Shown piece by piece: positions 16,436 to 61,432 of a DNA stretch of 64,000 bases; positions within the stretch are counted from its first letter, which is position 1, and every line of letters begins with the position of its first letter. Source of the DNA: Candidatus Poriferihabitaceae bacterium (lineage in GTDB: Bacteria > Pseudomonadota > Gammaproteobacteria > Arenicellales > Poriferihabitantaceae); contig CBDEFQ010000009.1 in assembly GCA_965237485.1 (NCBI GenBank), forward strand, positions 1,241,778 through 1,305,777, given 5' to 3'. The position numbers and the translations under genes are program-made. The notes under the pieces were generated by a model. That model worked only from the letters and a program-made list of their open reading frames with translations, ran no database searches and was not told the origin of the DNA.

Positions 16436-16706
16436 ACTAGTACACTGTCCAGACCAAATTGATGGATTCAGTGAGATTGTCCGCGTTCATGGCAAGGCGC
16501 GTCTTGCAGCGAATGGTGTTCCCTTTGCAAAACGCGCAACGCAGCCCATGGACGCGGACAAGCTCACCCAAAGGGCACTACCATGGCGTCCCGCAGCTGC
16601 GTTGCAGTGCTTATTAAGGGAATAACCATTAATTGCGTACTGCGTCTTATTGCAAAACACCATGGTAGTGCTGAATCCATCAATTTGGTCTGGACAGTGT
16701 ACTAGT
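16436..16706 (+). repeat. Structured repeat copy A (candidate ncRNA or unusual non-autonomous element)
   Basis: Perfect 36-nt terminal arms (16436-16471 / 16671-16706) enclose a core homologous to 57174-57371. Internal helices are 16478-16492/16546-16560 and 16576-16586/16660-16670. Confidence 0.6.
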
Positions 16707-16707
16707 A

Positions 16708-34336: not shown

Positions 34337-34364
34337 AGAATATAACTGACCAGACGAGGCCCAT
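33291..34364 (-). CDS. IS5-family DDE transposase
   Basis: 357-aa ORF with an InsH-like N-terminal region (HPYRKLDELL..LRALVLQFMEDLSDREME) and DDE regions FVDASQL, VYADKGY and YERVFAHRNK. The ORF-track ATG lies 28 bp outside the IS end, so the native start is probably internal (TTG about 93 nt downstream). Confidence 0.75.
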   Translation of the reverse strand: MGLVWSVIFWACRIINRIREIIWADSSQPAILSKRHQSQLFLTLDSLVSSEHPYRKLDELLCFGALSKPFSKIYATRGPKGRGVEFGLRALVLQFMEDLSDREMERYLSENLAAKWFCDSGLEQSTPDHSYFGDFRSRIGTRGMMNLFDRVRSGLVSMGLVREVFTFVDASQLVSKLTTWDDRDKAIKMGLEEFNNKTVDKVAADKQARFGCKGNSKYWYGYKEHASVDMQSGLINKIAATSAEVTDASGLKHVCPKSGAVYADKGYCVSPAKTTLRRNGCHDATIKKNNMHGKNRDKDRWISKIRSPYERVFAHRNKRVRYKGLAKVQFQVGIRGLCFNLKRLMALGVERVELVPA

Positions 34365-36024: not shown

Positions 36025-36059
36025 CTTAGATTCTGTGGCTGATTTGACATTAGCAAGGT

Positions 36060-37400
36060 TTAAAGTGTTTCAAAGAACGCACGTTGTTTGTCGGCAGGCA
36101 AATTCAAAACTTCCATTTTCTTATGTTCTGGTAAAGCCTTAAAAGCTTGGCACTTTTCTAATGCTAGTTCTTTAGTCAGAGCTTTAAACTTCTGGCTTAG
36201 ATTATTTCCAGATTCGTTAGCTTCGCCTTTTGGTGATTCTCCTGCTATTGATACGTTTATTCCTTCTGCGGCTAAAGCAATTGGAGTTTTAATTAGCCGC
36301 TGACCAACTTCAATTCCATCTCGGATAACAACATTCTCCGCATCGGCCCATAGCAGGGTAATTTGTTTATGAATTAGTTTGTTGTCCTTTGAAACAAGTT
36401 GAATGTGAGTATTATTTTTAGTGGAGTTGCGCGGGATGACCCAAACATCATTTAACACGGTAGCATCAATTTGAGCACTTACAAATTGACCCAATGTGAG
36501 CGCTTGCCCACCATCAGCGCTTTTTACAAAGGGCTGTGCCACTTCAGCCACCACATACTGCTGTAAGCTTTGTGCATTTACTATGCCTTCGCTACGCACT
36601 AATGTCCCTCTGCGTACAGAAGTTGGTTTTTTTTCACTACCCTCAATGGCGACATTCGGCCCCGCTTCATTAGATAGTGCCTCAAGATTGAGGAAGGACA
36701 GCTGCTTAGCAGTAAGGGGTAGGCGCACCTCAATCTTATCCGTTGCGACTAATTCTAAAAGCGTTGTTCCGGCATTTACAAACTGATTTATACTTACCTG
36801 CTTGGTGATAATGCGACTGTCAAATGGGGCATTTATTTTAGTTCGTGTCAGTTGGGTTCTCGCTTGAGCAACGCGCGCTTTCGCCGCAGCCAAGGCGGCT
36901 TCATTGCTTTTTCGTTGCGGTTCCCGTAATGCCAGTTTGCTGGGTTCTCCACTTAATCCTAACAGTGCGCGGTCACGTAACACCTGGTCGCGCTCAGCAT
37001 CACCTTGTTCTAATGTCAGTTGGGCTTGGGCTTGGGCTAGCTCAGCTTTAACAATAATCAATTTTTGCTGAAGATCGGAATCGTCAATTTCAACTAACAC
37101 TTCATCCTTTTTGAATAGCCCGCCAACGTGAAGCTTGGGTGATAATTTGATGACGCGCCCCTTAACTTCGGCAGAAATCGTGCTTTGTTTGGTCGCTTGT
37201 ACTAGCCCATGGCTTTTTAATCGAACTTGATAGCTTTGCGGCGCTAAGTTCAGAACCTCTACCATGGGTGGATTGGCAGTTTTGGGGCGCCGCTGTTGAT
37301 CTGGTGCCGTATCCAGAAGTTGCTTACCAGCAAATAAGAATAGGCCAAGCACTAAGATGGGAAGACCAAATCTTAGTACGGAACGGATTAGGGCTAACAT
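36060..37400 (-). CDS. RND efflux periplasmic adaptor (membrane fusion protein)
   Basis: 446-aa ORF with an N-terminal TM anchor, a coiled-coil hairpin (AELAQAQAQLTLEQGDAERD..AAKARVAQARTQL), and barrel-sandwich and beta-barrel regions. Confidence 0.8.
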   Translation of the reverse strand: MLALIRSVLRFGLPILVLGLFLFAGKQLLDTAPDQQRRPKTANPPMVEVLNLAPQSYQVRLKSHGLVQATKQSTISAEVKGRVIKLSPKLHVGGLFKKDEVLVEIDDSDLQQKLIIVKAELAQAQAQLTLEQGDAERDQVLRDRALLGLSGEPSKLALREPQRKSNEAALAAAKARVAQARTQLTRTKINAPFDSRIITKQVSINQFVNAGTTLLELVATDKIEVRLPLTAKQLSFLNLEALSNEAGPNVAIEGSEKKPTSVRRGTLVRSEGIVNAQSLQQYVVAEVAQPFVKSADGGQALTLGQFVSAQIDATVLNDVWVIPRNSTKNNTHIQLVSKDNKLIHKQITLLWADAENVVIRDGIEVGQRLIKTPIALAAEGINVSIAGESPKGEANESGNNLSQKFKALTKELALEKCQAFKALPEHKKMEVLNLPADKQRAFFETL

Positions 37401-37535
37401 GGTTTTTAGGGTAGGTGCGTCTAAGGCCTTTAGTAGAGTGGGCTAAATTGTAACAAGAAATCACAACTCATCTATTACTTTGGCGAGGCCGAAGAAGCGG
37501 GGTACACAAGGGCTAGCCGTTTGCTAACCAACAAA

Positions 37536-37889
37536 TCAGTCAGTAGATGATTTCGGTTTTTCGTAGAAAATATAACTGGTTGAGTAGTCAGAGAACTCAA
37601 AATACACTTTTTGCTCATTTGCATCTTGTTTGGAGTTCAAGTTTTCGTCGAGTACCCCATAACCGAAGCGATAAGGCCGTGGCTGATTGCCGTTGGTGCT
37701 TACTGCGGTAGAAAGTTTATCAACACCCATAAACCGTTTGACCAGCTTGTCACCGGCGTAGACCTCAAGTACTCCATCGGTGCCCGTCCAGTTTTGAACA
37801 GCACGACCGAACTTGTTTTGGGTTTCTTGGGTACAAGCACTTAACAGCAAGCTAGCGAGCGCCACTAATAGGATAGGTTTTAATTGCAT
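37536..37889 (-). CDS. small lipoprotein, unknown function
   Basis: The start is set at MQLKPILLVALASLLLSAC (lipobox LLSAC). It is identical to its mirror copy at 50094-50447. Confidence 0.6.
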   Translation of the reverse strand: MQLKPILLVALASLLLSACTQETQNKFGRAVQNWTGTDGVLEVYAGDKLVKRFMGVDKLSTAVSTNGNQPRPYRFGYGVLDENLNSKQDANEQKVYFEFSDYSTSYIFYEKPKSSTD

Positions 37890-38408
37890 GGTTTTGATGT
37901 GCCTTCTCGGGCTTTGCAAGCAGCGGATATTATAGCGGGAATGACCAGCAATAAGAAATCATCCTTCGCGGGATCCGCATCGGGATTGGGGGTCTTACAC
38001 AGCTCCTCATATTCGATAAGGCTAGCGAACGCGGCACCACTGTCCAGCTACACTTTAGTATGAATTTGCTCGTCCGCTCGTAACTTCTCAATAACCCGTG
38101 GCAAAGCTGGCGCGTTCCATAATGATATCTGGCAGAGGATCAATATGTTGCTCACCGATACCAAGTCGATGGGTCAGGTAGTGCCAGAACGATATATCCA
38201 GTTTTCGGCAGGTCTTTTTCAAACTGGCAAACGTGTCCCGACACTGCTGGCCAGCATCGCTGCGGGTGGAGCCACTCACTTTTCGTTTTTTCACGTAATC
38301 GCGAATGTCTGTTTCACTGCCATTGGTGTGTAACGGAATATCTGGTCGATCTAGCACCAACAGTAATTCTGCTTGATTCGCATGGATTCGTTTGAGCGTC
38401 TGATTTAA

Positions 38409-38571
38409 CCTAGATAAATCAGTTAAAACACGAAAGTCCATGCAAGCTCTTGATGCACCTAGCAAAATCAAAAAAAACCTTATCACCAATAAGGTGACCG
38501 CGACTTTTTTGATTTCACTATGCACTTCAATTGCTTACATGTCTTTTCCGCGTTTAACTGATTTATCTAGG
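38409..38571 (-). mobile_element. 163-bp foldback MITE, subfamily 1
   Basis: Mirror of 49412-49574. Confidence 0.88.
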
Positions 38572-39539
38572 TTTAATGTTTGGTAGCATGTCTGTTGAGT
38601 GAAGATTTCATCGAAACGCTGCTCAAGTATTTTACGTTGGTTCTCGCAAGGCTGGGTTTTATACTCTTTTAACGCCCGATAAAAGCACCAGACTTGGTCG
38701 CGTATTTTAGCCATGCCCTGCCGGTGTCCCTCGTTCAGCGGTATCAACTTATGGATTAAGCGCTCGGTGTGTATCCAGCACAAGGCATGAGCCAAAATGT
38801 TAAATTGCCCTGCATCATCACTGACGACAACGATGTCATCACACAGACCATGATGCAAAATACTACCAAGTAATGCCCCTTCGGTGGTGATACGTCGGTG
38901 ACGTGCCTTAATGATCAACAGGCTATCGAGCATTTCAAGCCAGTCATCCTCGTTGGCAATACGGCGTTCCCGGTGCTCAGTTACAGCGGCTAAGGCTTGC
39001 TTTGGCAATCCATGTTGTTGCCTATAATTCAACGCACTTTGACTCAAACGATAATCCGTATTGCCAGCCCTTAATAGCGGTAGGAAGTTAATTCGACTTT
39101 TTGATTGAGTACTTTTAAACCACGCAAACAAGTCATTACCAATGTGCGTTACATAGCCATTTTTGCCCTGATGGCGAGCACCACTATCGTCCACGGTCAC
39201 GTAAGACGATGCGCTCAGAGCAACGCTTAGTAACGCCTCTTTCTCAGCATGAAAGGGCTCTTTAGCACTGATCAGTATTGGGTTAATTTGTCCCGAAGAA
39301 ATATCAATTCCCCACTCTCGCAACTGTTCCAACAAGAGTGGTTGCGTGGTTTGACAATGATGATATTGATAGAGAATATAACTGACCAGACGAGGCCCAT
39401 AATGTCGCCCTGCCACGGATGTCGGTAACTGGCCTTTGAGCTTTTTATTGTCTGGCGTTACCCAATGCGCTAAACGATAGCGGGTGGTATGAACCTTGAT
39501 AAGCAAATCTTGCACTACAAAATCCCGATAGCCTTTAAA

Positions 39540-39702
39540 CCTAGAAAACTCAGTTGAAACACAAATGTCTGCACAACTCTTTAATATGCCTAAGAAACCC
39601 AGAAAAGCACTCATCACCAATAAGGTGACCTCGTATTTTCTGACTTCCTTATTCATATCAATTAGTTACACATCTTTTTTGCGTTCAACTGGGTTTTCTA
39701 GG
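39540..39702 (-). mobile_element. 163-bp foldback MITE, subfamily 2
   Basis: Mirror of 48281-48443. Confidence 0.88.
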
Positions 39703-40292
39703 TTAAAGCGAGAACCTTCGGGCACGGACTTCGCTGGTTCAATAACCCGATTTAGGTCAATTGACAGCCTTGGTGTTTTCTTTGCCTTGTTCGACCCAGC
39801 TCGCTGCTTAGGTTTGTCGCTAGAAGATGAACGTTTTGGCTCTGTTTTCTTATCCATATTACCGCCCTTAACAGTAGGCCGCCTCTTCTGCCCCTTAAGG
39901 ATATTGATTTCATCTTTAAGCAATGCTATTTCTTCGTCCTGTTGTTGAACTCGCACCAACAGCTGCTCCACTAGCACCCGCAACATTTTTACTGCGGGGG
40001 TTTGTTCTTGTTCAGGAATGTCGGGAATAGAGGGTAGCTTACTCAAGGTCTTAAACGTCCGTTAACTGGATAGACCTTAGTGTACCATCGGTTTTGAAAG
40101 TCCAATTTTGCCTTCTCAACTGCGCCACAACGAACGTTAAGAAGACACCCCTGAACGTCCTTAAGCGATCTTTGTTATTAGCGTAAAGGGGCCTACAACC
40201 ACCCTGGAACTCAACCTAAATCGAGTCACTCGACCACGTTGAATTACCTTCCTTTTAGCGTAAAACCCGGTCAAGAAATATTTTGTTTTATT

Positions 40293-41201
40293 TTACCTGC
40301 CACGGGTTATTGAGAAGTTACATTTTATTTCCCTCATTACTTCGCTTTCTTCGTCTGAAGCCGGAGTATTCAATACCTTAAATTCATCCAATGCAGACAG
40401 CGCCATTTTGGGATGGCCGCAGTGTAAATAAATACCCTGCTTATATATTGCAAGCTGCGCGTTACGCGGCGCTCGATTCACTAAGGTTTCTGCAAGCCCT
40501 GCGTATTCACATAACTCTGGCACACGCCAATTACTTTCTTGAATCAATGCTCGCGCGGCTTCTGCGCCAAACGCTATAGATCGCTCAATCGACTGCTTGA
40601 TCCGAGTTAGCCCTGAATCTTTGTCACCTTTAATTTTAAAAAGCTTGCCTAGCCACTTAAACTCATCTGGAACATTTCCACTGTGATATTCGTATAAGCC
40701 TAATACCAGCATTAAATCTGGCTGATTGGGGTAGACCTCTAGTAAGGCAGCTGCTTGAGCTTTTGCTGATCTAGCCATTCTAAGCACCGAGATAGGCTGG
40801 TTTTGTGCAAACTTAATTCTCGCCGCGTGCGCCTGTGCTAGCACGTAGGCTAATTTGATCTCGTAGTTTGACTGATTACCCGCACGTTTCTTTAGCGCGG
40901 CAACACTCTCAAGCACCTTTTTAAGCCCTGCTCTTCGTCTTTCATTTTTATCTTCGAAATAAGCTTCAACCCAAGCATTTAAAGCCAGATAAAAATCGGC
41001 CAGATAAAACGCTGCATCCCGCCCTTTAAGATTTTCGATTAAGTCCTTCGCCGCGCTGCGCTCTCGGTTCAACATCAGCATATAGGCTTGTTGCATCTGT
41101 GCCTGAATACAGATTTGCGGCTCATCTTGATCTGCAAAACTGATATTTGCTGTGATCATGCTTAACGCTAATAGGGCAGATCGAAACATTGCGTCAGACA
41201 A
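40293..41201 (-). CDS. secreted helical-repeat (TPR-like) hypothetical protein, 3' end fused to or truncated by the IS terminus
   Basis: 302-aa ORF with a signal peptide (ALLALSMITANISFA). The last 8 codons (NFSITRGR) are encoded by the IS66-family terminal repeat, so the native C-terminus is lost or replaced. Confidence 0.5.
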   Translation of the reverse strand: MSDAMFRSALLALSMITANISFADQDEPQICIQAQMQQAYMLMLNRERSAAKDLIENLKGRDAAFYLADFYLALNAWVEAYFEDKNERRRAGLKKVLESVAALKKRAGNQSNYEIKLAYVLAQAHAARIKFAQNQPISVLRMARSAKAQAAALLEVYPNQPDLMLVLGLYEYHSGNVPDEFKWLGKLFKIKGDKDSGLTRIKQSIERSIAFGAEAARALIQESNWRVPELCEYAGLAETLVNRAPRNAQLAIYKQGIYLHCGHPKMALSALDEFKVLNTPASDEESEVMREIKCNFSITRGR

Positions 41202-47661: not shown

Positions 47662-47936
47662 GTAACTTCTCAATAACCCGTGGCAGGTAAAATAAAACAA
47701 AATATTTCTTGACCGGGTTTTACGCTAAAAGGAAGGTAATTCAACGTGGTCGAGTGACTCGATTTAGGTTGAGTTCCAGGGTGGTTGTAGGCCCCTTTAC
47801 GCTAATAACAAAGATCGCTTAAGGACGTTCAGGGGTGTCTTCTTAACGTTCGTTGTGGCGCAGTTGAGAAGGCAAAATTGGACTTTCAAAACCGATGGTA
47901 CACTAAGGTCTATCCAGTTAACGGACGTTTAAGACC

Positions 47937-49895
47937 TTGAGTAAGCTACCCTCTATTCCCGACATTCCTGAACAAGAACAAACCCCCGCAGTAAAAATGT
48001 TGCGGGTGCTAGTGGAGCAGCTGTTGGTGCGAGTTCAACAACAGGACGAAGAAATAGCATTGCTTAAAGATGAAATCAATATCCTTAAGGGGCAGAAGAG
48101 GCGGCCTACTGTTAAGGGCGGTAATATGGATAAGAAAACAGAGCCAAAACGTTCATCTTCTAGCGACAAACCTAAGCAGCGAGCTGGGTCGAACAAGGCA
48201 AAGAAAACACCAAGGCTGTCAATTGACCTAAATCGGGTTATTGAACCAGCGAAGTCCGTGCCCGAAGGTTCTCGCTTTAACCTAGAAAACCCAGTTGAAC
48301 GCAAAAAAGATGTGTAACTAATTGATATGAATAAGGAAGTCAGAAAATACGAGGTCACCTTATTGGTGATGAGTGCTTTTCTGGGTTTCTTAGGCATATT
48401 AAAGAGTTGTGCAGACATTTGTGTTTCAACTGAGTTTTCTAGGTTTAAAGGCTATCGGGATTTTGTAGTGCAAGATTTGCTTATCAAGGTTCATACCACC
48501 CGCTATCGTTTAGCGCATTGGGTAACGCCAGACAATAAAAAGCTCAAAGGCCAGTTACCGACATCCGTGGCAGGGCGACATTATGGGCCTCGTCTGGTCA
48601 GTTATATTCTCTATCAATATCATCATTGTCAAACCACGCAACCACTCTTGTTGGAACAGTTGCGAGAGTGGGGAATTGATATTTCTTCGGGACAAATTAA
48701 CCCAATACTGATCAGTGCTAAAGAGCCCTTTCATGCTGAGAAAGAGGCGTTACTAAGCGTTGCTCTGAGCGCATCGTCTTACGTGACCGTGGACGATAGT
48801 GGTGCTCGCCATCAGGGCAAAAATGGCTATGTAACGCACATTGGTAATGACTTGTTTGCGTGGTTTAAAAGTACTCAATCAAAAAGTCGAATTAACTTCC
48901 TACCGCTATTAAGGGCTGGCAATACGGATTATCGTTTGAGTCAAAGTGCGTTGAATTATAGGCAACAACATGGATTGCCAAAGCAAGCCTTAGCCGCTGT
49001 AACTGAGCACCGGGAACGCCGTATTGCCAACGAGGATGACTGGCTTGAAATGCTCGATAGCCTGTTGATCATTAAGGCACGTCACCGACGTATCACCACC
49101 GAAGGGGCATTACTTGGTAGTATTTTGCATCATGGTCTGTGTGATGACATCGTTGTCGTCAGTGATGATGCAGGGCAATTTAACATTTTGGCTCATGCCT
49201 TGTGCTGGATACACACCGAGCGCTTAATCCATAAGTTGATACCGCTGAACGAGGGACACCGGCAGGGCATGGCTAAAATACGCGACCAAGTCTGGTGCTT
49301 TTATCGGGCGTTAAAAGAGTATAAAACCCAGCCTTGCGAGAACCAACGTAAAATACTTGAGCAGCGTTTCGATGAAATCTTCACTCAACAGACATGCTAC
49401 CAAACATTAAACCTAGATAAATCAGTTAAACGCGGAAAAGACATGTAAGCAATTGAAGTGCATAGTGAAATCAAAAAAGTCGCGGTCACCTTATTGGTGA
49501 TAAGGTTTTTTTTGATTTTGCTAGGTGCATCAAGAGCTTGCATGGACTTTCGTGTTTTAACTGATTTATCTAGGTTAAATCAGACGCTCAAACGAATCCA
49601 TGCGAATCAAGCAGAATTACTGTTGGTGCTAGATCGACCAGATATTCCGTTACACACCAATGGCAGTGAAACAGACATTCGCGATTACGTGAAAAAACGA
49701 AAAGTGAGTGGCTCCACCCGCAGCGATGCTGGCCAGCAGTGTCGGGACACGTTTGCCAGTTTGAAAAAGACCTGCCGAAAACTGGATATATCGTTCTGGC
49801 ACTACCTGACCCATCGACTTGGTATCGGTGAGCAACATATTGATCCTCTGCCAGATATCATTATGGAACGCGCCAGCTTTGCCACGGGTTATTGA
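47937..49895 (+). CDS. IS66-family transposase reading frame, split into three same-phase segments (126 + 373 + 145 codons) by two MITEs
   Basis: Joined without the MITEs, it is a 541-codon frame. It has an N-terminal coiled coil, DDE-type regions VDDSGARH and VSDDAGQF, the IS66-typical CWIHTERL motif and TNGSETDIR. Confidence 0.75.
48281..48443 (+). mobile_element. 163-bp foldback MITE, subfamily 2
   Basis: The element runs CCTAGAAAACCCAGTTGAACGC...GTTTCAACTGAGTTTTCTAGG with TSD TTTAA (48276-48280 / 48444-48448). The empty site is visible in copy R2 (..CTCGCTTTAAAGGCTAT.., 53474-53490). Confidence 0.9.
49412..49574 (+). mobile_element. 163-bp foldback MITE, subfamily 1
   Basis: TSD TTAAA (49407-49411 / 49575-49579). 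It is present at the identical site in all four IS66-family copies. Confidence 0.9.
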
Positions 49896-50093
49896 GAAGT
49901 TACGAGCGGACGAGCAAATTCATACTAAAGTGTAGCTGGACAGTGGTGCCGCGTTCGCTAGCCTTATCGAATATGAGGAGCTGTGTAAGACCCCCAATCC
50001 CGATGCGGATCCCGCGAAGGATGATTTCTTATTGCTGGTCATTCCCGCTATAATATCCGCTGCTTGCAAAGCCCGAGAAGGCACATCAAAACC

Positions 50094-50447
50094 ATGCAAT
50101 TAAAACCTATCCTATTAGTGGCGCTCGCTAGCTTGCTGTTAAGTGCTTGTACCCAAGAAACCCAAAACAAGTTCGGTCGTGCTGTTCAAAACTGGACGGG
50201 CACCGATGGAGTACTTGAGGTCTACGCCGGTGACAAGCTGGTCAAACGGTTTATGGGTGTTGATAAACTTTCTACCGCAGTAAGCACCAACGGCAATCAG
50301 CCACGGCCTTATCGCTTCGGTTATGGGGTACTCGACGAAAACTTGAACTCCAAACAAGATGCAAATGAGCAAAAAGTGTATTTTGAGTTCTCTGACTACT
50401 CAACCAGTTATATTTTCTACGAAAAACCGAAATCATCTACTGACTGA
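50094..50447 (+). CDS. small lipoprotein, unknown function
   Basis: Lipobox LLSAC. Duplicate of 37536-37889. Confidence 0.6.
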   Translation: MQLKPILLVALASLLLSACTQETQNKFGRAVQNWTGTDGVLEVYAGDKLVKRFMGVDKLSTAVSTNGNQPRPYRFGYGVLDENLNSKQDANEQKVYFEFSDYSTSYIFYEKPKSSTD

Positions 50448-50582
50448 TTTGTTGGTTAGCAAACGGCTAGCCCTTGTGTACCCCGCTTCTTCGGCCTCGC
50501 CAAAGTAATAGATGAGTTGTGATTTCTTGTTACAATTTAGCCCACTCTACTAAAGGCCTTAGACGCACCTACCCTAAAAACC

Positions 50583-51923
50583 ATGTTAGCCCTAATCCGT
50601 TCCGTACTAAGATTTGGTCTTCCCATCTTAGTGCTTGGCCTATTCTTATTTGCTGGTAAGCAACTTCTGGATACGGCACCAGATCAACAGCGGCGCCCCA
50701 AAACTGCCAATCCACCCATGGTAGAGGTTCTGAACTTAGCGCCGCAAAGCTATCAAGTTCGATTAAAAAGCCATGGGCTAGTACAAGCGACCAAACAAAG
50801 CACGATTTCTGCCGAAGTTAAGGGGCGCGTCATCAAATTATCACCCAAGCTTCACGTTGGCGGGCTATTCAAAAAGGATGAAGTGTTAGTTGAAATTGAC
50901 GATTCCGATCTTCAGCAAAAATTGATTATTGTTAAAGCTGAGCTAGCCCAAGCCCAAGCCCAACTGACATTAGAACAAGGTGATGCTGAGCGCGACCAGG
51001 TGTTACGTGACCGCGCACTGTTAGGATTAAGTGGAGAACCCAGCAAACTGGCATTACGGGAACCGCAACGAAAAAGCAATGAAGCCGCCTTGGCTGCGGC
51101 GAAAGCGCGCGTTGCTCAAGCGAGAACCCAACTGACACGAACTAAAATAAATGCCCCATTTGACAGTCGCATTATCACCAAGCAGGTAAGTATAAATCAG
51201 TTTGTAAATGCCGGAACAACGCTTTTAGAATTAGTCGCAACGGATAAGATTGAGGTGCGCCTACCCCTTACTGCTAAGCAGCTGTCCTTCCTCAATCTTG
51301 AGGCACTATCTAATGAAGCGGGGCCGAATGTCGCCATTGAGGGTAGTGAAAAAAAACCAACTTCTGTACGCAGAGGGACATTAGTGCGTAGCGAAGGCAT
51401 AGTAAATGCACAAAGCTTACAGCAGTATGTGGTGGCTGAAGTGGCACAGCCCTTTGTAAAAAGCGCTGATGGTGGGCAAGCGCTCACATTGGGTCAATTT
51501 GTAAGTGCTCAAATTGATGCTACCGTGTTAAATGATGTTTGGGTCATCCCGCGCAACTCCACTAAAAATAATACTCACATTCAACTTGTTTCAAAGGACA
51601 ACAAACTAATTCATAAACAAATTACCCTGCTATGGGCCGATGCGGAGAATGTTGTTATCCGAGATGGAATTGAAGTTGGTCAGCGGCTAATTAAAACTCC
51701 AATTGCTTTAGCCGCAGAAGGAATAAACGTATCAATAGCAGGAGAATCACCAAAAGGCGAAGCTAACGAATCTGGAAATAATCTAAGCCAGAAGTTTAAA
51801 GCTCTGACTAAAGAACTAGCATTAGAAAAGTGCCAAGCTTTTAAGGCTTTACCAGAACATAAGAAAATGGAAGTTTTGAATTTGCCTGCCGACAAACAAC
51901 GTGCGTTCTTTGAAACACTTTAA
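50583..51923 (+). CDS. RND efflux periplasmic adaptor (membrane fusion protein)
   Basis: Identical 446-aa duplicate of 36060-37400. Confidence 0.8.
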   Translation: MLALIRSVLRFGLPILVLGLFLFAGKQLLDTAPDQQRRPKTANPPMVEVLNLAPQSYQVRLKSHGLVQATKQSTISAEVKGRVIKLSPKLHVGGLFKKDEVLVEIDDSDLQQKLIIVKAELAQAQAQLTLEQGDAERDQVLRDRALLGLSGEPSKLALREPQRKSNEAALAAAKARVAQARTQLTRTKINAPFDSRIITKQVSINQFVNAGTTLLELVATDKIEVRLPLTAKQLSFLNLEALSNEAGPNVAIEGSEKKPTSVRRGTLVRSEGIVNAQSLQQYVVAEVAQPFVKSADGGQALTLGQFVSAQIDATVLNDVWVIPRNSTKNNTHIQLVSKDNKLIHKQITLLWADAENVVIRDGIEVGQRLIKTPIALAAEGINVSIAGESPKGEANESGNNLSQKFKALTKELALEKCQAFKALPEHKKMEVLNLPADKQRAFFETL

Positions 51924-51958
51924 ACCTTGCTAATGTCAAATCAGCCACAGAATCTAAG

Positions 51959-52865
51959 ATGATAGCGTGGTTTGCCCGTAACGGCGTTGCTGCTAACTTG
52001 TTATTGCTGGTTATTCTTGCCATTGGTGGGTGGTCGCTTAAGGAACGTATCCCCCTTGAAGTATTCCCAGCTTTGAACACGACATCATCAACGTCGCCAT
52101 TATTTATCAAGGCACCAGTCCTACCGAAGTTGAACAAGCAGTTGTTGTACGCGCCGAAGAAGCCATCGCTGACCTCGATGGCGTTAAAAAGATTTCTTCT
52201 AGTGCTTACGAGGGTGCGGCCCGCTTAGCCATTGAAGTAGATAACGGCTTTAAGCCTCGTGAATTAGTGAACGACATAAAAAGCAGGATTGACAGTATTT
52301 CCACTTTTCCCGCAGAGGTCGAAAAAGCCAACTATTCGGTATCAGTTTTTCGCCGCGAAGTGATCAGTGTCGCTGTTTCTGGCGATCTTCCAGAATTGGA
52401 CTTACGCCAAATTAGCGAACAAGTCCGCGATGAAATTGCCGCCCTATCGCAAATTAGTTATGCCGAGTTAAACGGCATTCGCGACCACGAGATTAGCATT
52501 GAGATTGAGCCGCAGAAATTACAGCAAGCGAAGATAAGTTTAGCCGAGATTGTGAACTCGCTTAAACAGGCTTCAATCGACTTTCCTGCAGGTTCCATTA
52601 AAGGCAAGTGGCGGCGAGATTTTATTGCGCACTAGCAACTTAAGAGAATCTGCCGATTCATTCGGCAATCTTAGTTTACGCAGCGATGCCCAAGGCAATG
52701 ATTTAAAACTCAAGGATATTGCCACGGTCACGGACGGCTTTGCTCAAGACCCCCTCAACACCCATTTTAATGGCGAGCCGACTATTATTATTGAGGTCTA
52801 TCGCACGGGCAAGCAAAGTGCGATTACGGTTGCCAATGCGGTTAAAGACTACCTCGACTTAAAAC
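51959..52865 (+). pseudogene. RND efflux permease remnant (frameshifted, truncated by IS)
   Basis: Mirror of 35118-36024. The IS66-family IR starts at 52866. Confidence 0.8.
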
Positions 52866-53618
52866 GTAACTTCTCAATAACCCGTGGCAGGTAAAATAAA
52901 ACAAAATATTTCTTGACAGGGTTTTACGCTAAAAGGAAGGTAATTCAACGTGGTCGAGTGACTCGATTTAGGTTGAGTTCCAGGGTGGTTGTAGGCACCT
53001 TTACGCTAATAACAAAGATCGCTTAAGGACGTTCAGGGGTGTCTTCTTAACGTTCGTTGTGGCGCAGTTGAGAAGGCAAAATTGGACTTTCAAAACCGAT
53101 GGTACACTAAGGTCTATCCAGTTAACGGACGTTTAAGACCTTGAGTAAGCTACCCTCTATTCCCGACATTCCTGAACAAGAACAAACCCCCGCAGTAAAA
53201 ATGTTGCGGGTGCTAGTGGAGCAGCTGTTGGTGCGAGTTCAACAACAGGACGAAGAAATAGCATTGCTTAAAGATGAAATCAATATCCTTAAGGGGCAGA
53301 AGAGGCGGCCTACTGTTAAGGGCGGTAATATGGATAAGAAAACAGAGCCAAAACGTTCATCTTCTAGCGACAAACCTAAGCAGCGAGCTGGGTCGAACAA
53401 GGCAAAGAAAACACCAAGGCTGTCAATTGACCTAAATCGGGTTATTGAACCAGCGAAGTCCGTGCCCGAAGGTTCTCGCTTTAAAGGCTATCGGGATTTT
53501 GTAGTGCAAGATTTGCTTATCAAGGTTCATACCACCCGCTATCGTTTAGCGCATTGGGTAACGCCAGACAATAAAAAGCTCAAAGGCCAGTGACCGACAT
53601 CCGTGGCAGGGCGACATT

Positions 53619-54692
53619 ATGGGCCTCGTCTGGTCAGTTATATTCTGGGCTTGTCGGATAATTAATAGAATACGTGAGATAATATGGGCTGATTCTAGTC
53701 AGCCTGCAATTTTGAGCAAACGTCATCAAAGCCAACTGTTCCTAACCTTAGATTCTCTGGTTAGCTCTGAACATCCCTACCGTAAACTCGATGAGCTATT
53801 ATGTTTTGGTGCATTGAGTAAACCCTTCTCTAAAATATATGCCACCCGTGGCCCTAAAGGCCGAGGTGTTGAGTTCGGCTTACGTGCCTTGGTGCTTCAG
53901 TTCATGGAAGATTTAAGTGATAGAGAAATGGAGCGATACTTATCAGAGAATCTGGCCGCTAAGTGGTTTTGTGATTCAGGACTGGAACAGAGCACTCCTG
54001 ATCATAGTTACTTTGGTGATTTTCGCTCACGCATTGGAACCAGGGGTATGATGAATTTATTTGACCGTGTTCGGAGCGGGTTAGTTTCAATGGGCTTAGT
54101 ACGAGAAGTATTCACATTTGTCGATGCCAGCCAGTTGGTCAGTAAGCTAACCACTTGGGATGATAGAGATAAGGCGATAAAGATGGGATTAGAGGAGTTC
54201 AACAATAAGACAGTTGATAAAGTTGCGGCGGACAAGCAAGCACGGTTTGGGTGCAAGGGAAATAGCAAATATTGGTATGGTTACAAAGAGCATGCATCAG
54301 TGGATATGCAAAGTGGCTTGATCAATAAAATAGCGGCCACCTCGGCTGAGGTAACGGATGCAAGCGGCTTGAAGCATGTTTGCCCTAAGTCGGGCGCTGT
54401 TTATGCGGACAAGGGTTATTGCGTGAGCCCGGCCAAAACCACGCTCAGGCGCAACGGTTGCCATGATGCAACAATCAAGAAGAACAATATGCATGGCAAG
54501 AATAGAGACAAAGACCGTTGGATTAGCAAAATTCGTTCACCATATGAGCGAGTGTTTGCTCATCGCAATAAGCGAGTTCGTTATAAAGGGTTGGCTAAAG
54601 TCCAGTTCCAAGTTGGAATCAGGGGCTTATGTTTTAACCTTAAGCGATTAATGGCATTGGGAGTTGAACGAGTTGAATTGGTGCCGGCCTAG
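53619..54692 (+). CDS. IS5-family DDE transposase
   Basis: Identical to 33291-34364. The ORF-track ATG is outside the IS boundary, and a likely internal TTG start lies at 53712. Confidence 0.75.
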   Translation: MGLVWSVIFWACRIINRIREIIWADSSQPAILSKRHQSQLFLTLDSLVSSEHPYRKLDELLCFGALSKPFSKIYATRGPKGRGVEFGLRALVLQFMEDLSDREMERYLSENLAAKWFCDSGLEQSTPDHSYFGDFRSRIGTRGMMNLFDRVRSGLVSMGLVREVFTFVDASQLVSKLTTWDDRDKAIKMGLEEFNNKTVDKVAADKQARFGCKGNSKYWYGYKEHASVDMQSGLINKIAATSAEVTDASGLKHVCPKSGAVYADKGYCVSPAKTTLRRNGCHDATIKKNNMHGKNRDKDRWISKIRSPYERVFAHRNKRVRYKGLAKVQFQVGIRGLCFNLKRLMALGVERVELVPA

Positions 54693-54822
54693 GGATAGAT
54701 CCGTCTATTGGTGGCAAAATGGCTGCTAATAGACGGTTTATTGCACAAAAAACGCGTTGCTGAGCAAACTAAAAGCGACTTCGGCGAAAACCCTGTTTGA
54801 AATTGTATTAACCGACGAGCCC
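53647..54822 (+). mobile_element. IS5-family insertion sequence nested in the IS66-family element
   Basis: IRs GGGCTTGTCGGATAATTAAT / ..ATTAACCGACGAGCCC, flanked by duplicated ATTCT. Confidence 0.85.
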
Positions 54823-55618
54823 ATTCTCTATCAATATCATCATTGTCAAACCACGCAACCACTCTTGTTGGAACAGTTGCGAGAGTGGGGAATTGATATT
54901 TCTTCGGGACAAATTAACCCAATACTGATCAGCACTAAAGAGCCCTTTCATGCTGAGAAAGAGGCGTTGCTCTGAGCGCATCGTCTTACGTGACCGTGGA
55001 CGATAGTGGTGCTCGCCATCAGGGCAAAAATGGCTATGTAACGCACATTGGTAATGACTTGTTTGCGTGGTTTAAAAGTACTCAATCAAAAAGTCGAATT
55101 AACTTCCTACCGCTATTAAGGGCTGGCAATACGGATTATCGTTTGAGTCAAAGTGCGTTGAATTATAGGCAACAACATGGATTGCCAAAGCAAGCCTTAG
55201 CCGCTGTAACTGAGCACCGGGAACGCCGTATTGCTAACGAGGATGACTGGCTTGAAATGCTCGATAGCCTGTTGATCATTAAGGCACGTCACCGACGTAT
55301 CACCACCGAAGGGGCATTACTTGGTAGTATTTTGCATCATGGTCTGTGTGATGACATCGTTGTCGTCAGTGATGATGCAGGGCAATTTAACATTTTGGCT
55401 CATGCCTTGTGTTGGATACACACCGAGCGCTTAATCCATAAGTTGATACCGCTGAACGAGGGACACCGGCAGGGCATGGCTAAAATACGCGACCAAGTCT
55501 GGTGCTTTTATCGGGCGTTAAAAGAGTATAAAACCCAGCCTTGCGAGAACCAACGTAAAATACTTGAGCAGCGTTTCGATGAAATCTTCACTCAACAGAC
55601 ATGCTACCAAACATTAAA

Positions 55619-56176: not shown

Positions 56177-57142
56177 ATGCTTCAGATATCCACAAAACGT
56201 ATCCACTATGGGTTTTTGGTCGTTCCTGACTTTTCGCTAATGACCTACGCATCAGCCATTGAAATGTTACGAATGGTGAATCAGGTGAATGAGAGAGTAC
56301 TCTACACATGGGACGTATTGACCCCTAATAATCAGCCTATTTTGGCCAGTTGTGGGCTTGAGATTGCACCGAGTAAGAACAAGGAAGAGATGGCCAATTA
56401 CAGTGCCTTGTTTGTGTCTGGCGGTATCAATATTCGTCGAGCTTGGAACCCTAAACTGGCAACTTGGTTAAGACAAATTGCCAAATCGCGCGTAGCATTG
56501 GCTGGGTTAAGCACAGGCCCGTATTTGCTTGCTAAGTCTGGGTTGTTGGATGGTTATCGGTCGACTGTCCATTGGGATAGTTTGTCCTCAATGCGTGAGG
56601 AATTTCCACATTTAAAACTAACTGACGATGTTTATGAAATCGACCGCGACCGATACACTTGCGCTGGCGGCGCATCGACAATGGATTTTATGTTGCACTT
56701 GATAGGTTTGGAATATGGAAAGGCAACGGCACGAAGCGTGTCAGATCTATTTTTGCTTGAACGCATTCGTACAGAGACCGATAGACAGCGCATCCCTCTA
56801 CGACATCAAATAGGTACTGGACAGCCGAAGTTGTATAGCGCGGTGGTATTGATGGAAGCCAATTTAGAAGAGCCCCTCACAACCGAAGAATTGGCAGGTT
56901 ACGTAAATATTACCCGAAGGCAGCTGGAGCGGTTATTTCGCAGACACCTTAAATGCACTCCGATGGAATACTACCGCAGTATCCGATTGGCAAACGCTCA
57001 ACGCTTATTACGTCATACAGAAATGCCAGTGCTAGAAGTCGCGATGGTATGTGGTTTTAATTCGGCGTCGCATTTTAGTCGTTGCTATAAAGAAGCACAC
57101 AATCGGACACCGGGTGCGGATAGACAGATATCGATGAACTAG
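56177..57142 (+). CDS. GlxA-family transcriptional regulator (DJ-1/PfpI-like domain + AraC HTH)
   Basis: The start is set at MLQISTKRIHYGFLVVPDF (ATG 56177), because the ORF-track start lies in the IS terminus. The C-terminal AraC HTH is LEVAMVCGFNSASHFSRCYKEAHNRTP. Confidence 0.8.
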   Translation: MLQISTKRIHYGFLVVPDFSLMTYASAIEMLRMVNQVNERVLYTWDVLTPNNQPILASCGLEIAPSKNKEEMANYSALFVSGGINIRRAWNPKLATWLRQIAKSRVALAGLSTGPYLLAKSGLLDGYRSTVHWDSLSSMREEFPHLKLTDDVYEIDRDRYTCAGGASTMDFMLHLIGLEYGKATARSVSDLFLLERIRTETDRQRIPLRHQIGTGQPKLYSAVVLMEANLEEPLTTEELAGYVNITRRQLERLFRRHLKCTPMEYYRSIRLANAQRLLRHTEMPVLEVAMVCGFNSASHFSRCYKEAHNRTPGADRQISMN

Positions 57143-57407
57143 TACTCTTTCAAGATAATATTGCCTAATTCAGTGAGTCTGTCCGCGTACCTGGCAAGGC
57201 GTCGCTTGCAGGAAATGGACTCCATTTTCAAAAGCGACAACGCAGTCCAGGTGCGTGGACAGGCTGACCCAAAGGGCACCAACGCGCCGTCCCACAGCCG
57301 CGTTGTATCGCTTTTGAAGGGAGTGACCATTCATTGCGCAATACGCCTTGCTGTGAAGCGGCGCGTTGACGCTGAATTAGGCAATATTATCTTGAAAGAC
57401 TACTGTC
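57138..57407 (+). repeat. Structured repeat copy B (candidate ncRNA or unusual non-autonomous element)
   Basis: The terminal arms pair over 57141-57173 / 57372-57404 (33 nt, 1 mismatch). The shared ACT prefix at 57138-57140 has no complementary partner in 57405-57407. Internal helices are 57180-57194/57247-57261 and 57280-57289/57359-57368. The core is homologous to copy A. Confidence 0.6.
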
Positions 57408-57415
57408 TTTAGCGG

Positions 57416-58174
57416 TTAATGCTGTAATATTTGGCTTAGAAAATCCTGTGTGCGCTCGTGTTGCGGATTCGTGAAAAAAGCCTCTGGTTCATTTTCTTCG
57501 ATAACTTTGCCCTCATCCATAAAGATAACTCGGTCTGCTACTTTTCTTGCAAACCCCATTTCATGGGTAACGCAAATCATGGTCATACCACTTTGCGCTA
57601 AGTCGACCATGGTATCCAAGACTTCAGATACCATTTCAGGATCTAGTGCAGACGTGGGTTCGTCAAACAGCATAATGCTAGGGTTCATACACAGTGCGCG
57701 TGCAATGGCGACGCGTTGCTGTTGGCCGCCAGAAAGCTGTCCGGGGTATTTATTGGCTTGTTGTGGAATCTTCACGCGCTCTAAAAACTCCATTGCCTTA
57801 GCTTCAGCCGTAGCTCTATCTTGCTTTAGTACGTATTGTGGCGCTGCGGTGCAATTTTCCAAAATTGTCATGTGCGGAAACAAATTGAAGTGCTGAAACA
57901 CCATGCCTACATCTGCACGCAGTTTTTCGACATTTTTCATTCGATCATGTACTTCGACACCTCCCACCCGGAGGATTCCTTTTTGGTGTGCTTCGAGACG
58001 ATTGATGCAGCGTATTAGTGTAGATTTTCCTGAACCAGAAGGTCCGCAGACGACGATGCGCTCGCCTTGGGTAACGGACAAATTTATGTCAGTTAGCGCG
58101 TGATACTCTCCATACCACTTATTTAAATTTACGATCTCTATGGTAGGACTAGTTGAGGCTGTGCTTGTGTTCAT
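57416..58174 (-). CDS. amino-acid ABC transporter ATP-binding protein
   Basis: It has Walker [10 protein letters not shown], signature [15 protein letters not shown] and Walker [12 protein letters not shown]. Confidence 0.9.
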
Positions 58175-60095: not shown

Positions 60096-61432
60096 AGTCT
60101 TGTCCAACATGAAATGATACCGAACTAATCTAATTTCTGTTCATGATGGTGAATGAATACCATTATGAATGACCACCATATAGATACCCTTGATAAGGCA
60201 CGCTTGTTGCTACAAGGCACTGATGAAATCGATCTGGCAATCGACGGTAAACGCAATCGCTATGATTTCATCAAACGCACCTTAATGCGTTTCAAATACA
60301 GCAAACTGGGTCGAGCCGATAAGGGTCTTGTGCTGCGTTATATCACACGCATCAGCGGTTACTCTTATGTGCAAGTGAAACGCCTGGCTGCCAGCTATCT
60401 CAAGCACGGTAGAATCCAGTGGCGACATCGTGCCACAAGGGGCTTTGCTAGACGCTATAGCAATCAAGACATTAAGCTTCTAGCAGATATGGATGAACTC
60501 CACGGTACGTTATCAGGCCATGCCACTAGGAAACTCTGTGAGCGCGCCCTATTGTCTATGAGCAAACTGAGTATGCCAACCTGGCACCTATCTCGGTTTC
60601 TCATCTATACAATCTACGCCGATCTAAACCCTACCAGAACAATCGCCGTCACTTTGAAAGACACATTCTAAGCCTTCTTCTATCGGCCAAAGACGTAAGC
60701 CACAGCCAGAAGGTCAACCTGGCTATAGCCGTGTAGATACAGTGCATCAGGGCGATAAGGACAAGGTTAAAGGGGTCTATCATATCAACGCCGTTGATGA
60801 GATCACCCCGTTTGAAGTCGTGTCTTCTACACAGAAAATATCAGAGCCATTCTTGATGCCTATTCTCACTCAAATGCTAGAGCAATTCCCCTTTGTGATT
60901 AAAGGCTTTCATGCCGATAATGGCAGTGAATACATTAACCAATCGGTGGTGCGATTGTTGAATAAGCTATTAATCGAGTTGACCCAATCCAGGGCTAGAC
61001 ACCGTAACGACCATGCCTTAGTTGAGTGCAACAATGGGGCCATCGTGCGCAAGCATCTTGGCTTCATGCATATCCCGCAAAAATATGCGCCTGAGATTAA
61101 TCAATTTGCCACCGACTTTCTTAACCCTTATTTGAATTATCACCGACCTTGTTTCTTCCCGCAGATCAGCACTAACAACAAAGGAAAACAAGTCAAAACC
61201 TATCCATATCGAAACATGATGACGCCTTATGAAAAACTCAAATCGTTGACCAATGCACAGTCATATCTTAAAACTCACATCTCGTTTATAATGCTTGACG
61301 ATATCGTTTATCAGATGACTGATAATGAGGCAGCAAAACAACTCAATGAGGAAAAAACTAAACTCTTTAAAAACATCTTTGAACAGAAATGACAATCAAC
61401 TTCTCGGTATCATTCCTGTATTGGAATAGACT
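60096..61432 (+). mobile_element. IS with rve-type DDE transposase, copy C (transposase frameshifted)
   Basis: 1337 bp with the same IRs and a 5-bp TSD TATCC (60091-60095 / 61433-61437). It lacks a 35-bp leader segment present in copies A and B. The ORFs 60153-60671 and 60742-61392 are in different frames. Confidence 0.88.

What the first reader, a model, noticed from the sequence alone, without database searches (positions are those of the whole stretch)
57138..57407. Second copy of the structured element; its first bases supply the stop codon of the GlxA/AraC regulator
Copy B has the same architecture as 16436-16706:
- terminal arms that pair over 33 nt (57141-57173 / 57372-57404) with one C/C mismatch
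- the 15-bp P2 helix with two G.T pairs on the + strand
- a 10-bp P3 helix of unrelated sequence

It fills the gap between two convergent genes. The regulator's TAG stop (57140-57142) lies inside the element's first five nucleotides (ACTAG). So either the insertion replaced the native C-terminus or the element targets CTAG/TAG.

Both copies, and also the unrelated 163-bp MITE family, terminate in CTAG-containing sequence. ORFs predicted inside the two copies (16487-16729, 57139-57330, 57161-57412) are not conserved at protein level, which argues for function at the RNA or DNA level.
Basis: partly seen in the sequence, partly recalled or inferred. Interest (0 to 1): 0.7.

Follow-up and report, generated by a model that had tools for sequence, protein, structure and literature searches.

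The report
Structured TA-targeting miniature transposon (MITE)
This 265-bp stretch is a copy of a small, non-coding mobile DNA element that inserted into the TA of the regulator's own TAG stop codon without changing the protein. It is unusual because its three-armed fold, not its end sequence, is what is conserved from this genome to Pseudomonas, Azotobacter and Halomonas.

Summary
Window 57142-57403 (copy B) and 16440-16702 (copy A) are about 70% identical. Each folds into a 33-36 bp terminal stem closing a three-way junction (z = -15 and -16).

The regulator's C-terminus is native. An 89%-identical orthologue without the element ends at the same residue. So the element targeted the TA of the stop codon and did not replace the protein's end.

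I recovered five more full copies and one truncated copy:
- two from metagenome contigs
- four from plasmids of Azotobacter chroococcum (two, one of them truncated), Pseudomonas aeruginosa and Halomonas

All full copies measure 268-271 bp from CTAG to CTAG and share the same fold. A TA duplication is perfect in 6 of 7. One copy splits a cupin gene, and removing it restores the reading frame. In Azotobacter the element shares its flanking CTAG with an IS630-family insertion sequence.

Among the four window-type copies, 36 of 107 base pairs carry compensatory changes. Both strands pair equally well (G·T 24, A·C 19). There is no Rfam match, promoter or codon signal.

Best reading: a previously undescribed MITE of IS630/Tc1-mariner type that acts at the DNA level. 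What is unusual is that the structured core is conserved while the terminal repeats differ between subgroups. Why the fold is kept remains unresolved.

The parts
57142..57403 (.). Body of copy B (262 bp), from terminal G to terminal C. Non-coding, and folds into a three-way junction.
   Evidence: Homologous over its full length to six other copies.
57140..57141 (.). Left copy of the duplicated TA target. Together with the element's first base, G57142, it forms the regulator's TAG stop codon.
   Evidence: Sequence read. TA flanks the element in 6 of 7 full copies.
57404..57405 (.). Decayed right copy of the target duplication (TG in place of TA).
   Evidence: compared with copies A, C, D and L026-L028.
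57141..57173 (.). Left terminal inverted repeat (5' strand of P1). The outer block G-T-R-C-N-C-T-N-T-C-N-A and the inner block ATTCAG are conserved, while the middle varies and co-varies with the right arm.
57372..57404 (.). Right terminal inverted repeat (3' strand of P1).
   Evidence: 33 nt, 97% complementary to the left arm.
57173..57268 (.). Left arm hairpin. The basal stem is 57173-57194 paired with 57247-57268. Its loops carry the conserved motifs GGCAAGGCG, AATGG..CTCC and CAACGCAG.
57267..57279 (.). Centre of the junction, ACCCAAAGGGCAC (a CC...GG mini-hairpin). The other copies have ACCCG(A/C)AGGG here.
57280..57368 (.). Right arm hairpin. It is the diverged inverted homologue of the left arm, and its basal stem is hypervariable but stays paired.
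16440..16702 (.). Body of copy A (263 bp). It is flanked by TA at 16438-16439 and 16703-16704 within perfect CTAGs. It lies between the dctP terminator and dctQ.
56177..57142 (+). GlxA/AraC-type regulator (321 aa from the ATG at 56177; the open frame begins at 56099). Its C-terminus is intact and its stop codon is shared with the element's edge.
57416..58174 (-). Convergent ABC transporter ATPase gene. Its stop codon lies 12 bp beyond the end of the element body.

Best explanation
Copy B is a non-autonomous DNA transposon (a MITE) of a previously undescribed, low-copy family. The family occurs in several gammaproteobacterial lineages.

Proposed mechanism:
1. A transposase supplied in trans, most likely of the IS630/Tc1-mariner family, recognises the terminal inverted repeats.
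2. It excises the element and inserts it into a TA dinucleotide, preferring CTAG, and duplicates the TA.
3. The element begins with G and ends with C, so each insertion rebuilds C-TA-G at both ends.
4. An insertion into the TA of a TAG stop codon therefore leaves the stop and the protein unchanged. That explains why such insertions survive at gene ends.

Architecture: the element is an inverted dimer of a ~135-nt half-unit. Each half is a terminal repeat plus a ~95-nt hairpin. Either DNA strand can fold into a long stem closing a three-way junction.

What is shown:
- mobility (an empty site and a split gene)
- the TA duplication
- the non-coding nature
- the conserved fold with compensatory changes
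- strand symmetry
- physical association with an IS630-family IS in Azotobacter

What is inferred:
- the identity of the mobilising transposase
- that the fold is maintained because mobility depends on it, for example through a snap-back or cruciform form that brings the two ends together, or because replication template-switching corrects the palindrome

Any effect on the neighbouring genes would be a by-product. Examples are a very stable 3'-UTR hairpin on the regulator mRNA, or an attenuator between dctP and dctQ.
For: Mobility:
- The orthologous locus L001 lacks the element, and the regulator there ends at the same residue.
- Copy C (L023:588-858) splits a cupin gene. Deleting the element plus one TA restores a single ORF, and its Cupin_2 match (residues 88-151) spans the junction.

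Target site:
- TA flanks 6 of 7 full copies perfectly. A 4-bp CTAG duplication is perfect in only 4 of 7.
- In copies B and D the TA belongs to a TAG stop codon.

Link to IS630:
- In A. chroococcum a complete, RefSeq-annotated IS630-family IS abuts the element and shares its CTAG, in two different arrangements. That IS has the same C-TA-G...C-TA-G ends.
- IS630 prefers the TA within CTAG, and ISY100 duplicates TA (PMC2170065 and its reference to Tenzen & Ohtsubo 1991).

Non-coding and not a known RNA:
- No codon periodicity.
- No Rfam match for any copy.
- No tRNA and no promoter above chance.

Structure:
- 96.3% of cells are paired, against 85.3% in shuffles and 35-40% with partners slid.
- 36 of 107 pairs carry compensatory changes, against 13.6 in shuffles and 2-7 when slid.
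- All seven copies give the same three-way junction.

DNA-level symmetry:
- G·T 24 against A·C 19 on the union of the pairs predicted for each strand. Neither strand is consistently more stable.
- The DNA-parameter fold is the same, with z = -13.4.
Against: - No IS with matching terminal repeats was found. The window holds no IS630-family gene, and the Azotobacter IS630 repeat (GTGTTATGACAC...) resembles the element's (GGGTCTGTTGACG...) only weakly.
- Conservation runs opposite to a typical MITE. The terminal repeats differ between the window group and the Pseudomonadales/Halomonas group, while the internal loop motifs and total length (268-271 bp) are conserved.
- The element is not A+T-rich (GC 0.51 against 0.45 for the window).
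- Copy number appears low: two copies in 64 kb, none in 30 kb of the sister genome, and four plasmid records out of 72,556.
- A cut-and-paste DDE transposase acting on duplex DNA has no known need for internal hairpins. The reason the fold is kept is therefore not explained by this model alone.
- Because CTAG is palindromic, a 4-bp CTAG duplication of the IS5 type (as in MITEPsy1, PMC3189936) cannot be strictly excluded.
Confidence: 0.68

Rival explanations
1. The same kind of MITE, but mobilised by an IS5-family transposase that duplicates the 4-bp target CTAG (YTAR). The element body would then be TAC...GTA.
For: - CTAG is intact on both sides of copies A, C, L026 and L028 and of every 163-bp MITE copy in the window.
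- MITEPsy1, derived from an IS5-family IS, duplicates CTAG or YTAA (PMC3189936).
- An IS5-family transposase gene is present in the window.
Against: - Three of seven copies have an imperfect 4-bp repeat (B CTAG/CTGT, D CTAG/CTAT, L027 TTAG/CTAG), while TA is perfect in six of seven.
- The window's IS5-like element makes an ATTCT duplication and has unrelated ends, GGGCTTGTCGG.
- The IS630-family IS next to the Azotobacter copies has the same C-TA-G...C-TA-G configuration.
Confidence: 0.15
2. The conserved three-way junction is a functional structured RNA, for example a regulatory or processing element or an sRNA. It would spread on a mobile cassette, and the terminal repeats would be only the vehicle.
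For: - The core fold, the loop motifs (GGCAAGGCG, AATGGTYRYTCCCTT, CAACGCAG, ACCCGAAGGG) and the length are conserved across orders, while stems and terminal repeats change with compensation.
- Published MITEs (Correia, ERIC) act at the RNA level on neighbouring transcripts (PMC2229807).
Against: - No strand asymmetry: G·T 24 against A·C 19, and the energies favour neither strand.
- Orientation relative to host transcription is mixed. Copy A is antisense to the dctPQ operon, and copy B follows the regulator in sense.
- No promoter or terminator signal above chance.
- No Rfam family.
- One copy lies inside a coding sequence.
- The two arms carry the motifs on opposite strands. That fits dyad-symmetric DNA recognition better than a single RNA.
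Confidence: 0.1
3. The element moves as a folded single strand of DNA. A structure-specific enzyme would recognise the fold rather than the sequence, as an HUH/Y1 transposase does for IS200/IS605 and REPINs, or a tyrosine recombinase does for integron attC sites.
For: - The fold is conserved while the stem sequences diverge, which is the pattern known for attC sites and REPINs.
- Length is constant.
- Loop and bulge motifs are conserved.
- The DNA-parameter fold is very stable.
Against: - The element has long terminal inverted repeats and a TA target duplication. IS200/IS605 elements and REPINs lack both.
- It is not in a cassette array.
- The motif-bearing hairpins lie on opposite strands rather than on one strand.
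- There is no strand bias.
- The co-located enzyme gene in Azotobacter is an IS630-family DDE transposase.
Confidence: 0.07

Closest known systems
IS630/Tc1-mariner-derived MITEs (pneumococcal RUP mobilised by IS630-Spn1; plant Stowaway elements)
   Same: - Small and non-coding, with terminal inverted repeats.
- Inserts at TA and duplicates it. The CTAG preference matches that of IS630.
- Able to fold into a very stable hairpin over its whole length.
- Found next to an IS630-family IS.
   Different: - 262-265 bp against 107 bp for RUP.
- Branched three-way junction instead of a simple stem-loop.
- Not A+T-rich.
- No parent IS with matching terminal repeats has been identified.
- The internal core is conserved across orders, while the terminal repeats differ.
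Correia/NEMIS elements of Neisseria and ERIC/IRU elements of enterobacteria
   Same: - TA at the termini, with a target duplication.
- Long 5'-3' end-pairing stem.
- Insertions at gene ends and inside operons.
- Published effects on neighbouring mRNAs through RNA hairpins (PMC2229807).
   Different: - Those are simple hairpins of 100-155 bp, present at tens to hundreds of near-identical copies per genome.
- This family has few, diverged copies (68-81% identity) and two internal arms.
Caulobacter/Brucella CIR repeats
   Same: Two long internal inverted repeats form two arms joined by a linker, and the structure is conserved phylogenetically (PMC2229807).
   Different: - CIRs lack the closing 5'-3' stem and only partly fit the MITE definition.
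- Here a 24-36 bp terminal stem closes the two arms, and a target duplication is present.
MITEPsy1 (IS5-family derived, Pseudomonas syringae)
   Same: Inserts at CTAG (or YTAA) and is flanked by that sequence (PMC3189936).
   Different: - 100 bp, with terminal repeats starting GGAAGG like its parent ISPsy2, and a 4-bp duplication.
- There is no sequence similarity to the present family.
REPINs and integron attC sites
   Same: The fold is conserved while stem sequences diverge, with compensatory changes.
   Different: - Those have no terminal inverted repeats plus TA duplication, and they are recognised on one specific strand.
- Here there is a target duplication, strand symmetry and an IS630 association.

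Membership tests
MITE (prokaryotic; definition as in PMC10969869 and PMC2229807) | Small (<500 bp) and without coding capacity | tested here: met
   - 262-265 bp body.
- No codon periodicity (0.38/0.47/0.44).
- Stops and frameshifts differ among copies.
- No Pfam hit for the internal ORFs.
MITE (prokaryotic; definition as in PMC10969869 and PMC2229807) | Terminal inverted repeats | tested here: met
   33 nt with 1 mismatch in copy B and 36 nt with none in copy A. About 24-26 bp in the Pseudomonadales/Halomonas copies.
MITE (prokaryotic; definition as in PMC10969869 and PMC2229807) | Flanking target-site duplication | tested here: met
   TA on both sides in 6 of 7 full copies. It has decayed to TA/TG in copy B.
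MITE (prokaryotic; definition as in PMC10969869 and PMC2229807) | Evidence of mobility (filled versus empty sites) | tested here: met
   - The orthologous site in L001 is empty.
- A cupin gene is split in L023 and is restored by deleting the element plus one TA.
MITE (prokaryotic; definition as in PMC10969869 and PMC2229807) | Terminal repeats matching an autonomous IS that supplies the transposase | tested here: inconclusive
   - No IS in the window shares the ends.
- The adjacent Azotobacter IS630 has only weak end similarity.
- The rest of the host genome could not be searched.
MITE (prokaryotic; definition as in PMC10969869 and PMC2229807) | A+T-rich composition and many near-identical copies (typical, not obligatory) | tested here: not met
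   - GC 0.51 against 0.45 for the window.
- Copies are 68-81% identical.
- Two copies in 64 kb, with a third inferred from P0121.
IS630/Tc1-mariner superfamily (non-autonomous derivative) | Insertion at TA with TA duplication; CTAG preference for IS630 itself | tested here: met
   Inferred targets are CTAG (A, C, L026, L028 and probably B), CTAT (D) and TTAG (L027).
IS630/Tc1-mariner superfamily (non-autonomous derivative) | Co-occurrence with an IS630-family transposase | tested here: inconclusive
   - Met on both A. chroococcum plasmids, where the IS directly abuts the element.
- No such gene among the transposase-like ORFs of the window that I scanned; the other ORFs were not checked.
IS630/Tc1-mariner superfamily (non-autonomous derivative) | Binding and cleavage of the ends by the transposase | not testable with these tools
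   Needs biochemistry or a transposition assay.
Described structured RNA family (Rfam 15) | Match to a covariance model | tested here: not met
   Nothing at gathering score. Nothing credible at E <= 1-10 for any of the eight loci.
Structured non-coding RNA gene (generic) | Strand-specific pairing (G·U tolerated, A·C avoided) and its own expression signals | tested here: not met
   - G·T 24 against A·C 19.
- Strand energies are mixed.
- No promoter or terminator above chance.
- Orientation relative to host genes varies.
IS200/IS605-type PATE or REPIN | No terminal inverted repeats, no target duplication, hairpins recognised on one strand | tested here: not met
   Long terminal repeats and a TA duplication are present. 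The motif-bearing arms lie on opposite strands.

The most novel reading that the evidence does not exclude
The unit under selection is the fold itself. On this reading it is a ~270-nt three-way-junction module with conserved loop motifs that has swapped its terminal repeats while spreading through Gammaproteobacteria. It would then be one of two things:
- a mobile element whose transposition requires a folded (snap-back, cruciform or single-stranded) intermediate read by a DDE transposase, which is not known for the IS630/Tc1-mariner family
- a mobile carrier of a functional nucleic-acid structure, such as a protein-binding DNA or RNA module
Probability: 0.15. Interest if true: 0.75.

Novelty: new variant of a known kind. 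Interest (0 to 1): 0.45.

Why it matters
- It explains how a gene can carry a mobile element on its stop codon without damage. The mechanism is general: an element with G...C ends inserting at the TA of TAG or CTAG rebuilds the stop. This matters for annotation, because gene callers produced spurious 76-114 aa 'proteins' inside these elements.
- It defines an undescribed repeat family shared by an uncultured, IS-rich gammaproteobacterium, Pseudomonas aeruginosa, Azotobacter and Halomonas.
- Its conservation pattern is the reverse of a normal MITE: the fold and loop motifs are kept while the ends change.
- If the fold is needed for mobility, it would show that an IS630/Tc1-mariner-type reaction can depend on DNA secondary structure.
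- If the fold is not needed for mobility, the family is a clean natural example of palindrome maintenance by template switching.
- In either case, such a stable hairpin (-140 to -180 kcal/mol as RNA) inside operons is likely to affect expression locally.

Tried and rejected
**Searches that failed**
- Exact-pattern scans of genome contigs (TCAGTGAG N70-100 ACCCAAAGGGCAC) and metagenome contigs (GGCAAGGCG N55-75 CCCAAAGGGCAC) returned only chance hits, such as IS3 orfA. I checked these with nhmmer.
- The centre motif later proved not to be invariant (CCCGAAGGGCG in other copies).
- A better pattern scanned against viral contigs gave 0 hits.
- A six-frame 'polyprotein' alignment used to fish for spurious ORFs from all frames returned nothing and spent the last homologue search.
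- Exact-protein look-ups for the window's own genes and for P0121 are not on record, so the rest of the host genome could not be read.
I used nhmmer profiles instead.

**What did work**
- Searching with the spurious 83-aa ORF of copy B recovered the metagenome copies.
- A weak 52-nt blastn hit led to the plasmid copies.

**Hypotheses rejected**
- Replacement of the regulator's C-terminus.
- A protein-coding gene.
- A tRNA-derived element.
- A simple rod-like palindrome: interior pairing is only 47% Watson-Crick, against 96% standard pairs (G·T counted) for the three-way junction.
- Mobilisation by the window's IS5-like element, which has an ATTCT duplication and unrelated ends.
- Shared ends with any IS in the window.
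- A retron-like ncRNA: no reverse transcriptase nearby, and the element has dyad symmetry.
Full report
**1. The observation**

The sequence at 57138-57407 is as described.
- Its ends pair over 33 nt (57141-57173 with 57372-57404) with one C/C mismatch.
- The twin at 16436-16706 pairs 36/36.
- The two elements are about 70% identical over their own length.
- As RNA, copy B folds to -155.5 kcal/mol (z = -15.2) and copy A to -158.6 kcal/mol (z = -16.4). In each a long terminal stem closes a three-way junction with two ~95-nt arms.
- The reverse strands fold about equally well, at -138.3 and -162.8 kcal/mol.
- DNA energy parameters give the same fold, z = -13.4.

The flanking genes converge on the element.
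- One is a DJ-1/PfpI + HTH_18 regulator.
- The other is an ABC ATPase.
- The regulator's TAG at 57140-57142 lies in the ACTAG at the element's edge.

**2. The regulator's C-terminus is native**

- The HTH_18 match runs to four residues before the stop, covering profile positions 1-79 of 80.
- The closest orthologue is P0002, 89% identical, from an ENA assembly. Its locus L001 has only 53 bp between the regulator and the ABC ATPase gene and no element.
- P0002 ends at the same residue...RRLSVN against ...RQISMN.
- So the element did not replace the C-terminus. The stop-codon position predates the insertion.
- L001 is not a clean empty site. Its stop is TAA and its spacer is longer. It does show absence of the element.

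**3. More copies**

Exact-pattern scans of the genome and metagenome collections failed, because the motif I chose is not invariant. Two other routes worked.
- Gene callers had translated a spurious ORF inside some copies. Searching with the 83-aa ORF of copy B found P0121, P0122 and P0123.
  - P0121 comes from a 575-kb contig listed under the same public sources (NCBI, ENA) as the window's own contig. Its DNA was not retrievable.
  - P0122 and P0123 gave DNA for copy C (L023:588-858) and copy D (L024:53-323).
- blastn of copy C against plasmids gave a weak 52-nt hit that proved to be a full homologue in Azotobacter chroococcum pAcX50f (L026:1337-1607). That copy in turn found three more:
  - P. 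aeruginosa PA83 plasmid (L027:2500-2770)
  - Halomonas sp. PA16-9 (L028:2501-2770)
  - a left-truncated copy in A. chroococcum HR1 (L029)

Shared features of the seven full copies:
- All are 268-271 bp from CTAG to CTAG.
- All fold into the same three-way junction.
- GC content tracks the host, from 0.51 to 0.66.
- No copy matches Rfam.
- None is annotated in the RefSeq or PLSDB records.

**4. It is mobile and targets TA, preferring CTAG**

- Copy C sits inside a gene. Removing the element plus one TA fuses the two flanking ORFs into one 167-aa frame, and its Pfam Cupin_2 match (residues 88-151) spans the junction.
- TA flanks six of the seven full copies perfectly. Copy B has TA/TG. A 4-bp CTAG repeat is perfect in only four of seven.
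- The element starts with G and ends with C, so C-TA-G is rebuilt on both sides.
- In copy B and copy D the TA is part of a TAG stop codon of the neighbouring ORF, and that stop is preserved.
- Copy A lies immediately after the intrinsic terminator of dctP and before dctQ.
- Copy L027 lies between two genes of an acyl-CoA operon.

It follows from target choice.

**5. Which transposase**

- The window's IS5-family element makes an ATTCT duplication and has unrelated ends. No IS in the window shares the element's ends.
- On both A. chroococcum plasmids a complete 1,189-bp IS abuts the element and shares the CTAG. RefSeq annotates it as IS630 family.
  - It lies to the element's left in L026 and to its right in L029.
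  - It has the same C-TA-G...C-TA-G ends.
- IS630 is known to prefer the TA in CTAG, and ISY100 duplicates TA (PMC2170065).
- The P1 stem has a conserved outer block, a variable middle and a conserved inner ATTCAG. I read this as compatible with the two-HTH end binding described for ISY100 transposase. This is inference.
- The element's ends and those of the neighbouring IS630 are only weakly similar, so the trans-acting enzyme is inferred, not shown.
- An IS5-type CTAG duplication, as in MITEPsy1 (PMC3189936), remains a minority alternative.

**6. The structure is maintained, and at the level of DNA**

Among the four window-type copies (68-81% identical):

| Measure | Observed | Column shuffles | Partners slid |
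|---|---|---|---|
| Cells forming standard pairs | 96.3% | 85.3% | 35-40% |
| Pairs with compensatory double changes (of 107) | 36 | 13.6 | 2-7 |

- The compensatory changes are spread over the terminal stem and both arms.
- A simple rod-like palindrome is not what is maintained. Interior pairing in that register is only 47% Watson-Crick.
- The two arms are diverged inverted homologues. Eight arms align with invariant AAG, AATGG, TCC.TT and ACGC.G motifs and co-varying stems.
- The canonical arm is recognisable in the Pseudomonadales/Halomonas copies, where the stem sequences are entirely different.
- On the union of pairs predicted for each strand, G·T (24) and A·C (19) are balanced. Which strand is more stable differs from copy to copy.
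- Orientation relative to host transcription is mixed, no promoter is detected, and there is no codon signal.

This argues against a strand-specific RNA and for dyad-symmetric DNA.

**7. What is unusual**

- In ordinary MITE families the terminal repeats, shared with the parent IS, are the conserved part and the interior is free.
- Here the terminal repeats differ between subgroups: GTAC.CT.TC.A...ATTCAG against GGG(T/C)CTGTTGACGTTT.
- The interior loop motifs, the junction centre ACCCG(A/C)AGGG, the fold and the total length are all conserved.
- Copy A is closer to the metagenomic copy C (80.6%) than to copy B in its own genome (70.1%). Diverged lineages therefore coexist in one genome.
- Each lineage keeps near-perfect pairing, so pairing must be renewed. 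Candidate causes are selection on mobility or function, or template-switch correction of quasi-palindromes. I could not discriminate between these.

**8. Verdict**

This is a real, previously undescribed structured MITE-like element. It is most likely an IS630/Tc1-mariner-type non-autonomous transposon that landed on the TA of the regulator's stop codon. It fits a known kind of element but has an atypical conservation pattern that merits a genome-wide survey and a transposition assay.

Noticed in passing
window 32546-40321 and 47662-55437: A 7,776-nt inverted repeat, 100% complementary, with 7.3 kb between the arms. It carries IS66-like (373 aa), HlyD-like (446 aa) and IS5-like (357 aa) genes. 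It looks like a recent inverted duplication of a composite IS structure, or possibly an assembly artefact.
   Followed up: partly
window 19842-20004, 48281-48443, 49412-49574 (further copies inside the large repeats at 32385, 38409, 39535, 55619): A 163-bp MITE family with different ends (ATAAATCAGTTAAA...). Each of the copies I read is flanked by CTAG on both sides. This is a second CTAG-targeting non-autonomous element in the same genome.
   Followed up: partly
window ~53646-54823: An IS5-family element (DUF772 + DDE_Tnp_1) inserted inside an IS66-like copy. It has a 5-bp ATTCT duplication and GGGCTTGTCGG ends, seen by comparison with the uninterrupted copy at 48560-48660.
   Followed up: yes
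window ~56110 against 56177: The end of the IS66-like repeat lies about 66 bp upstream of the regulator's ATG. In the sister genome that position holds a divergent MTTB gene with a 278-bp spacer. The regulator's native promoter region may therefore have been displaced.
   Followed up: no
window 16714-16743 (- strand): A canonical intrinsic terminator (12-bp stem plus T-tract) lies directly after dctP. Copy A is inserted at the CTAG immediately after its T-tract, between dctP and dctQ of a TRAP transporter operon.
   Followed up: partly
window ~19954-21237, 30278-31562, 60111-61392: Three copies of an IS with a weak rve (integrase core) match. The first has an intact 449-aa ORF. In the other two the ORF is split.
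   Followed up: no
L026:154-1340 and L029:2749-3937 (Azotobacter chroococcum plasmids): A complete 1,189-bp IS630-family IS with ends C-TA-GTGTTATGACAC...GTGTTGAGACAC-TA-G. It shares its CTAG with the structured element in two different arrangements. This suggests that the rebuilt CTAG ends act as hot spots for further insertions.
   Followed up: partly
L026-L028, second arm of the element: In the Pseudomonadales/Halomonas subgroup one arm has diverged. It carries a conserved purine-rich GAGGAGAGAA(G/A)TTTG...AATGAACGACGA stretch that is absent from the window subgroup. Its meaning is unknown.
   Followed up: no
P0121, P0122, P0123; window 57161-57412: Public gene callers have predicted 76-114 aa 'hypothetical proteins' inside copies of this element. 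One reading frame stays open in three of four copies, although there is no coding signal.
   Followed up: yes
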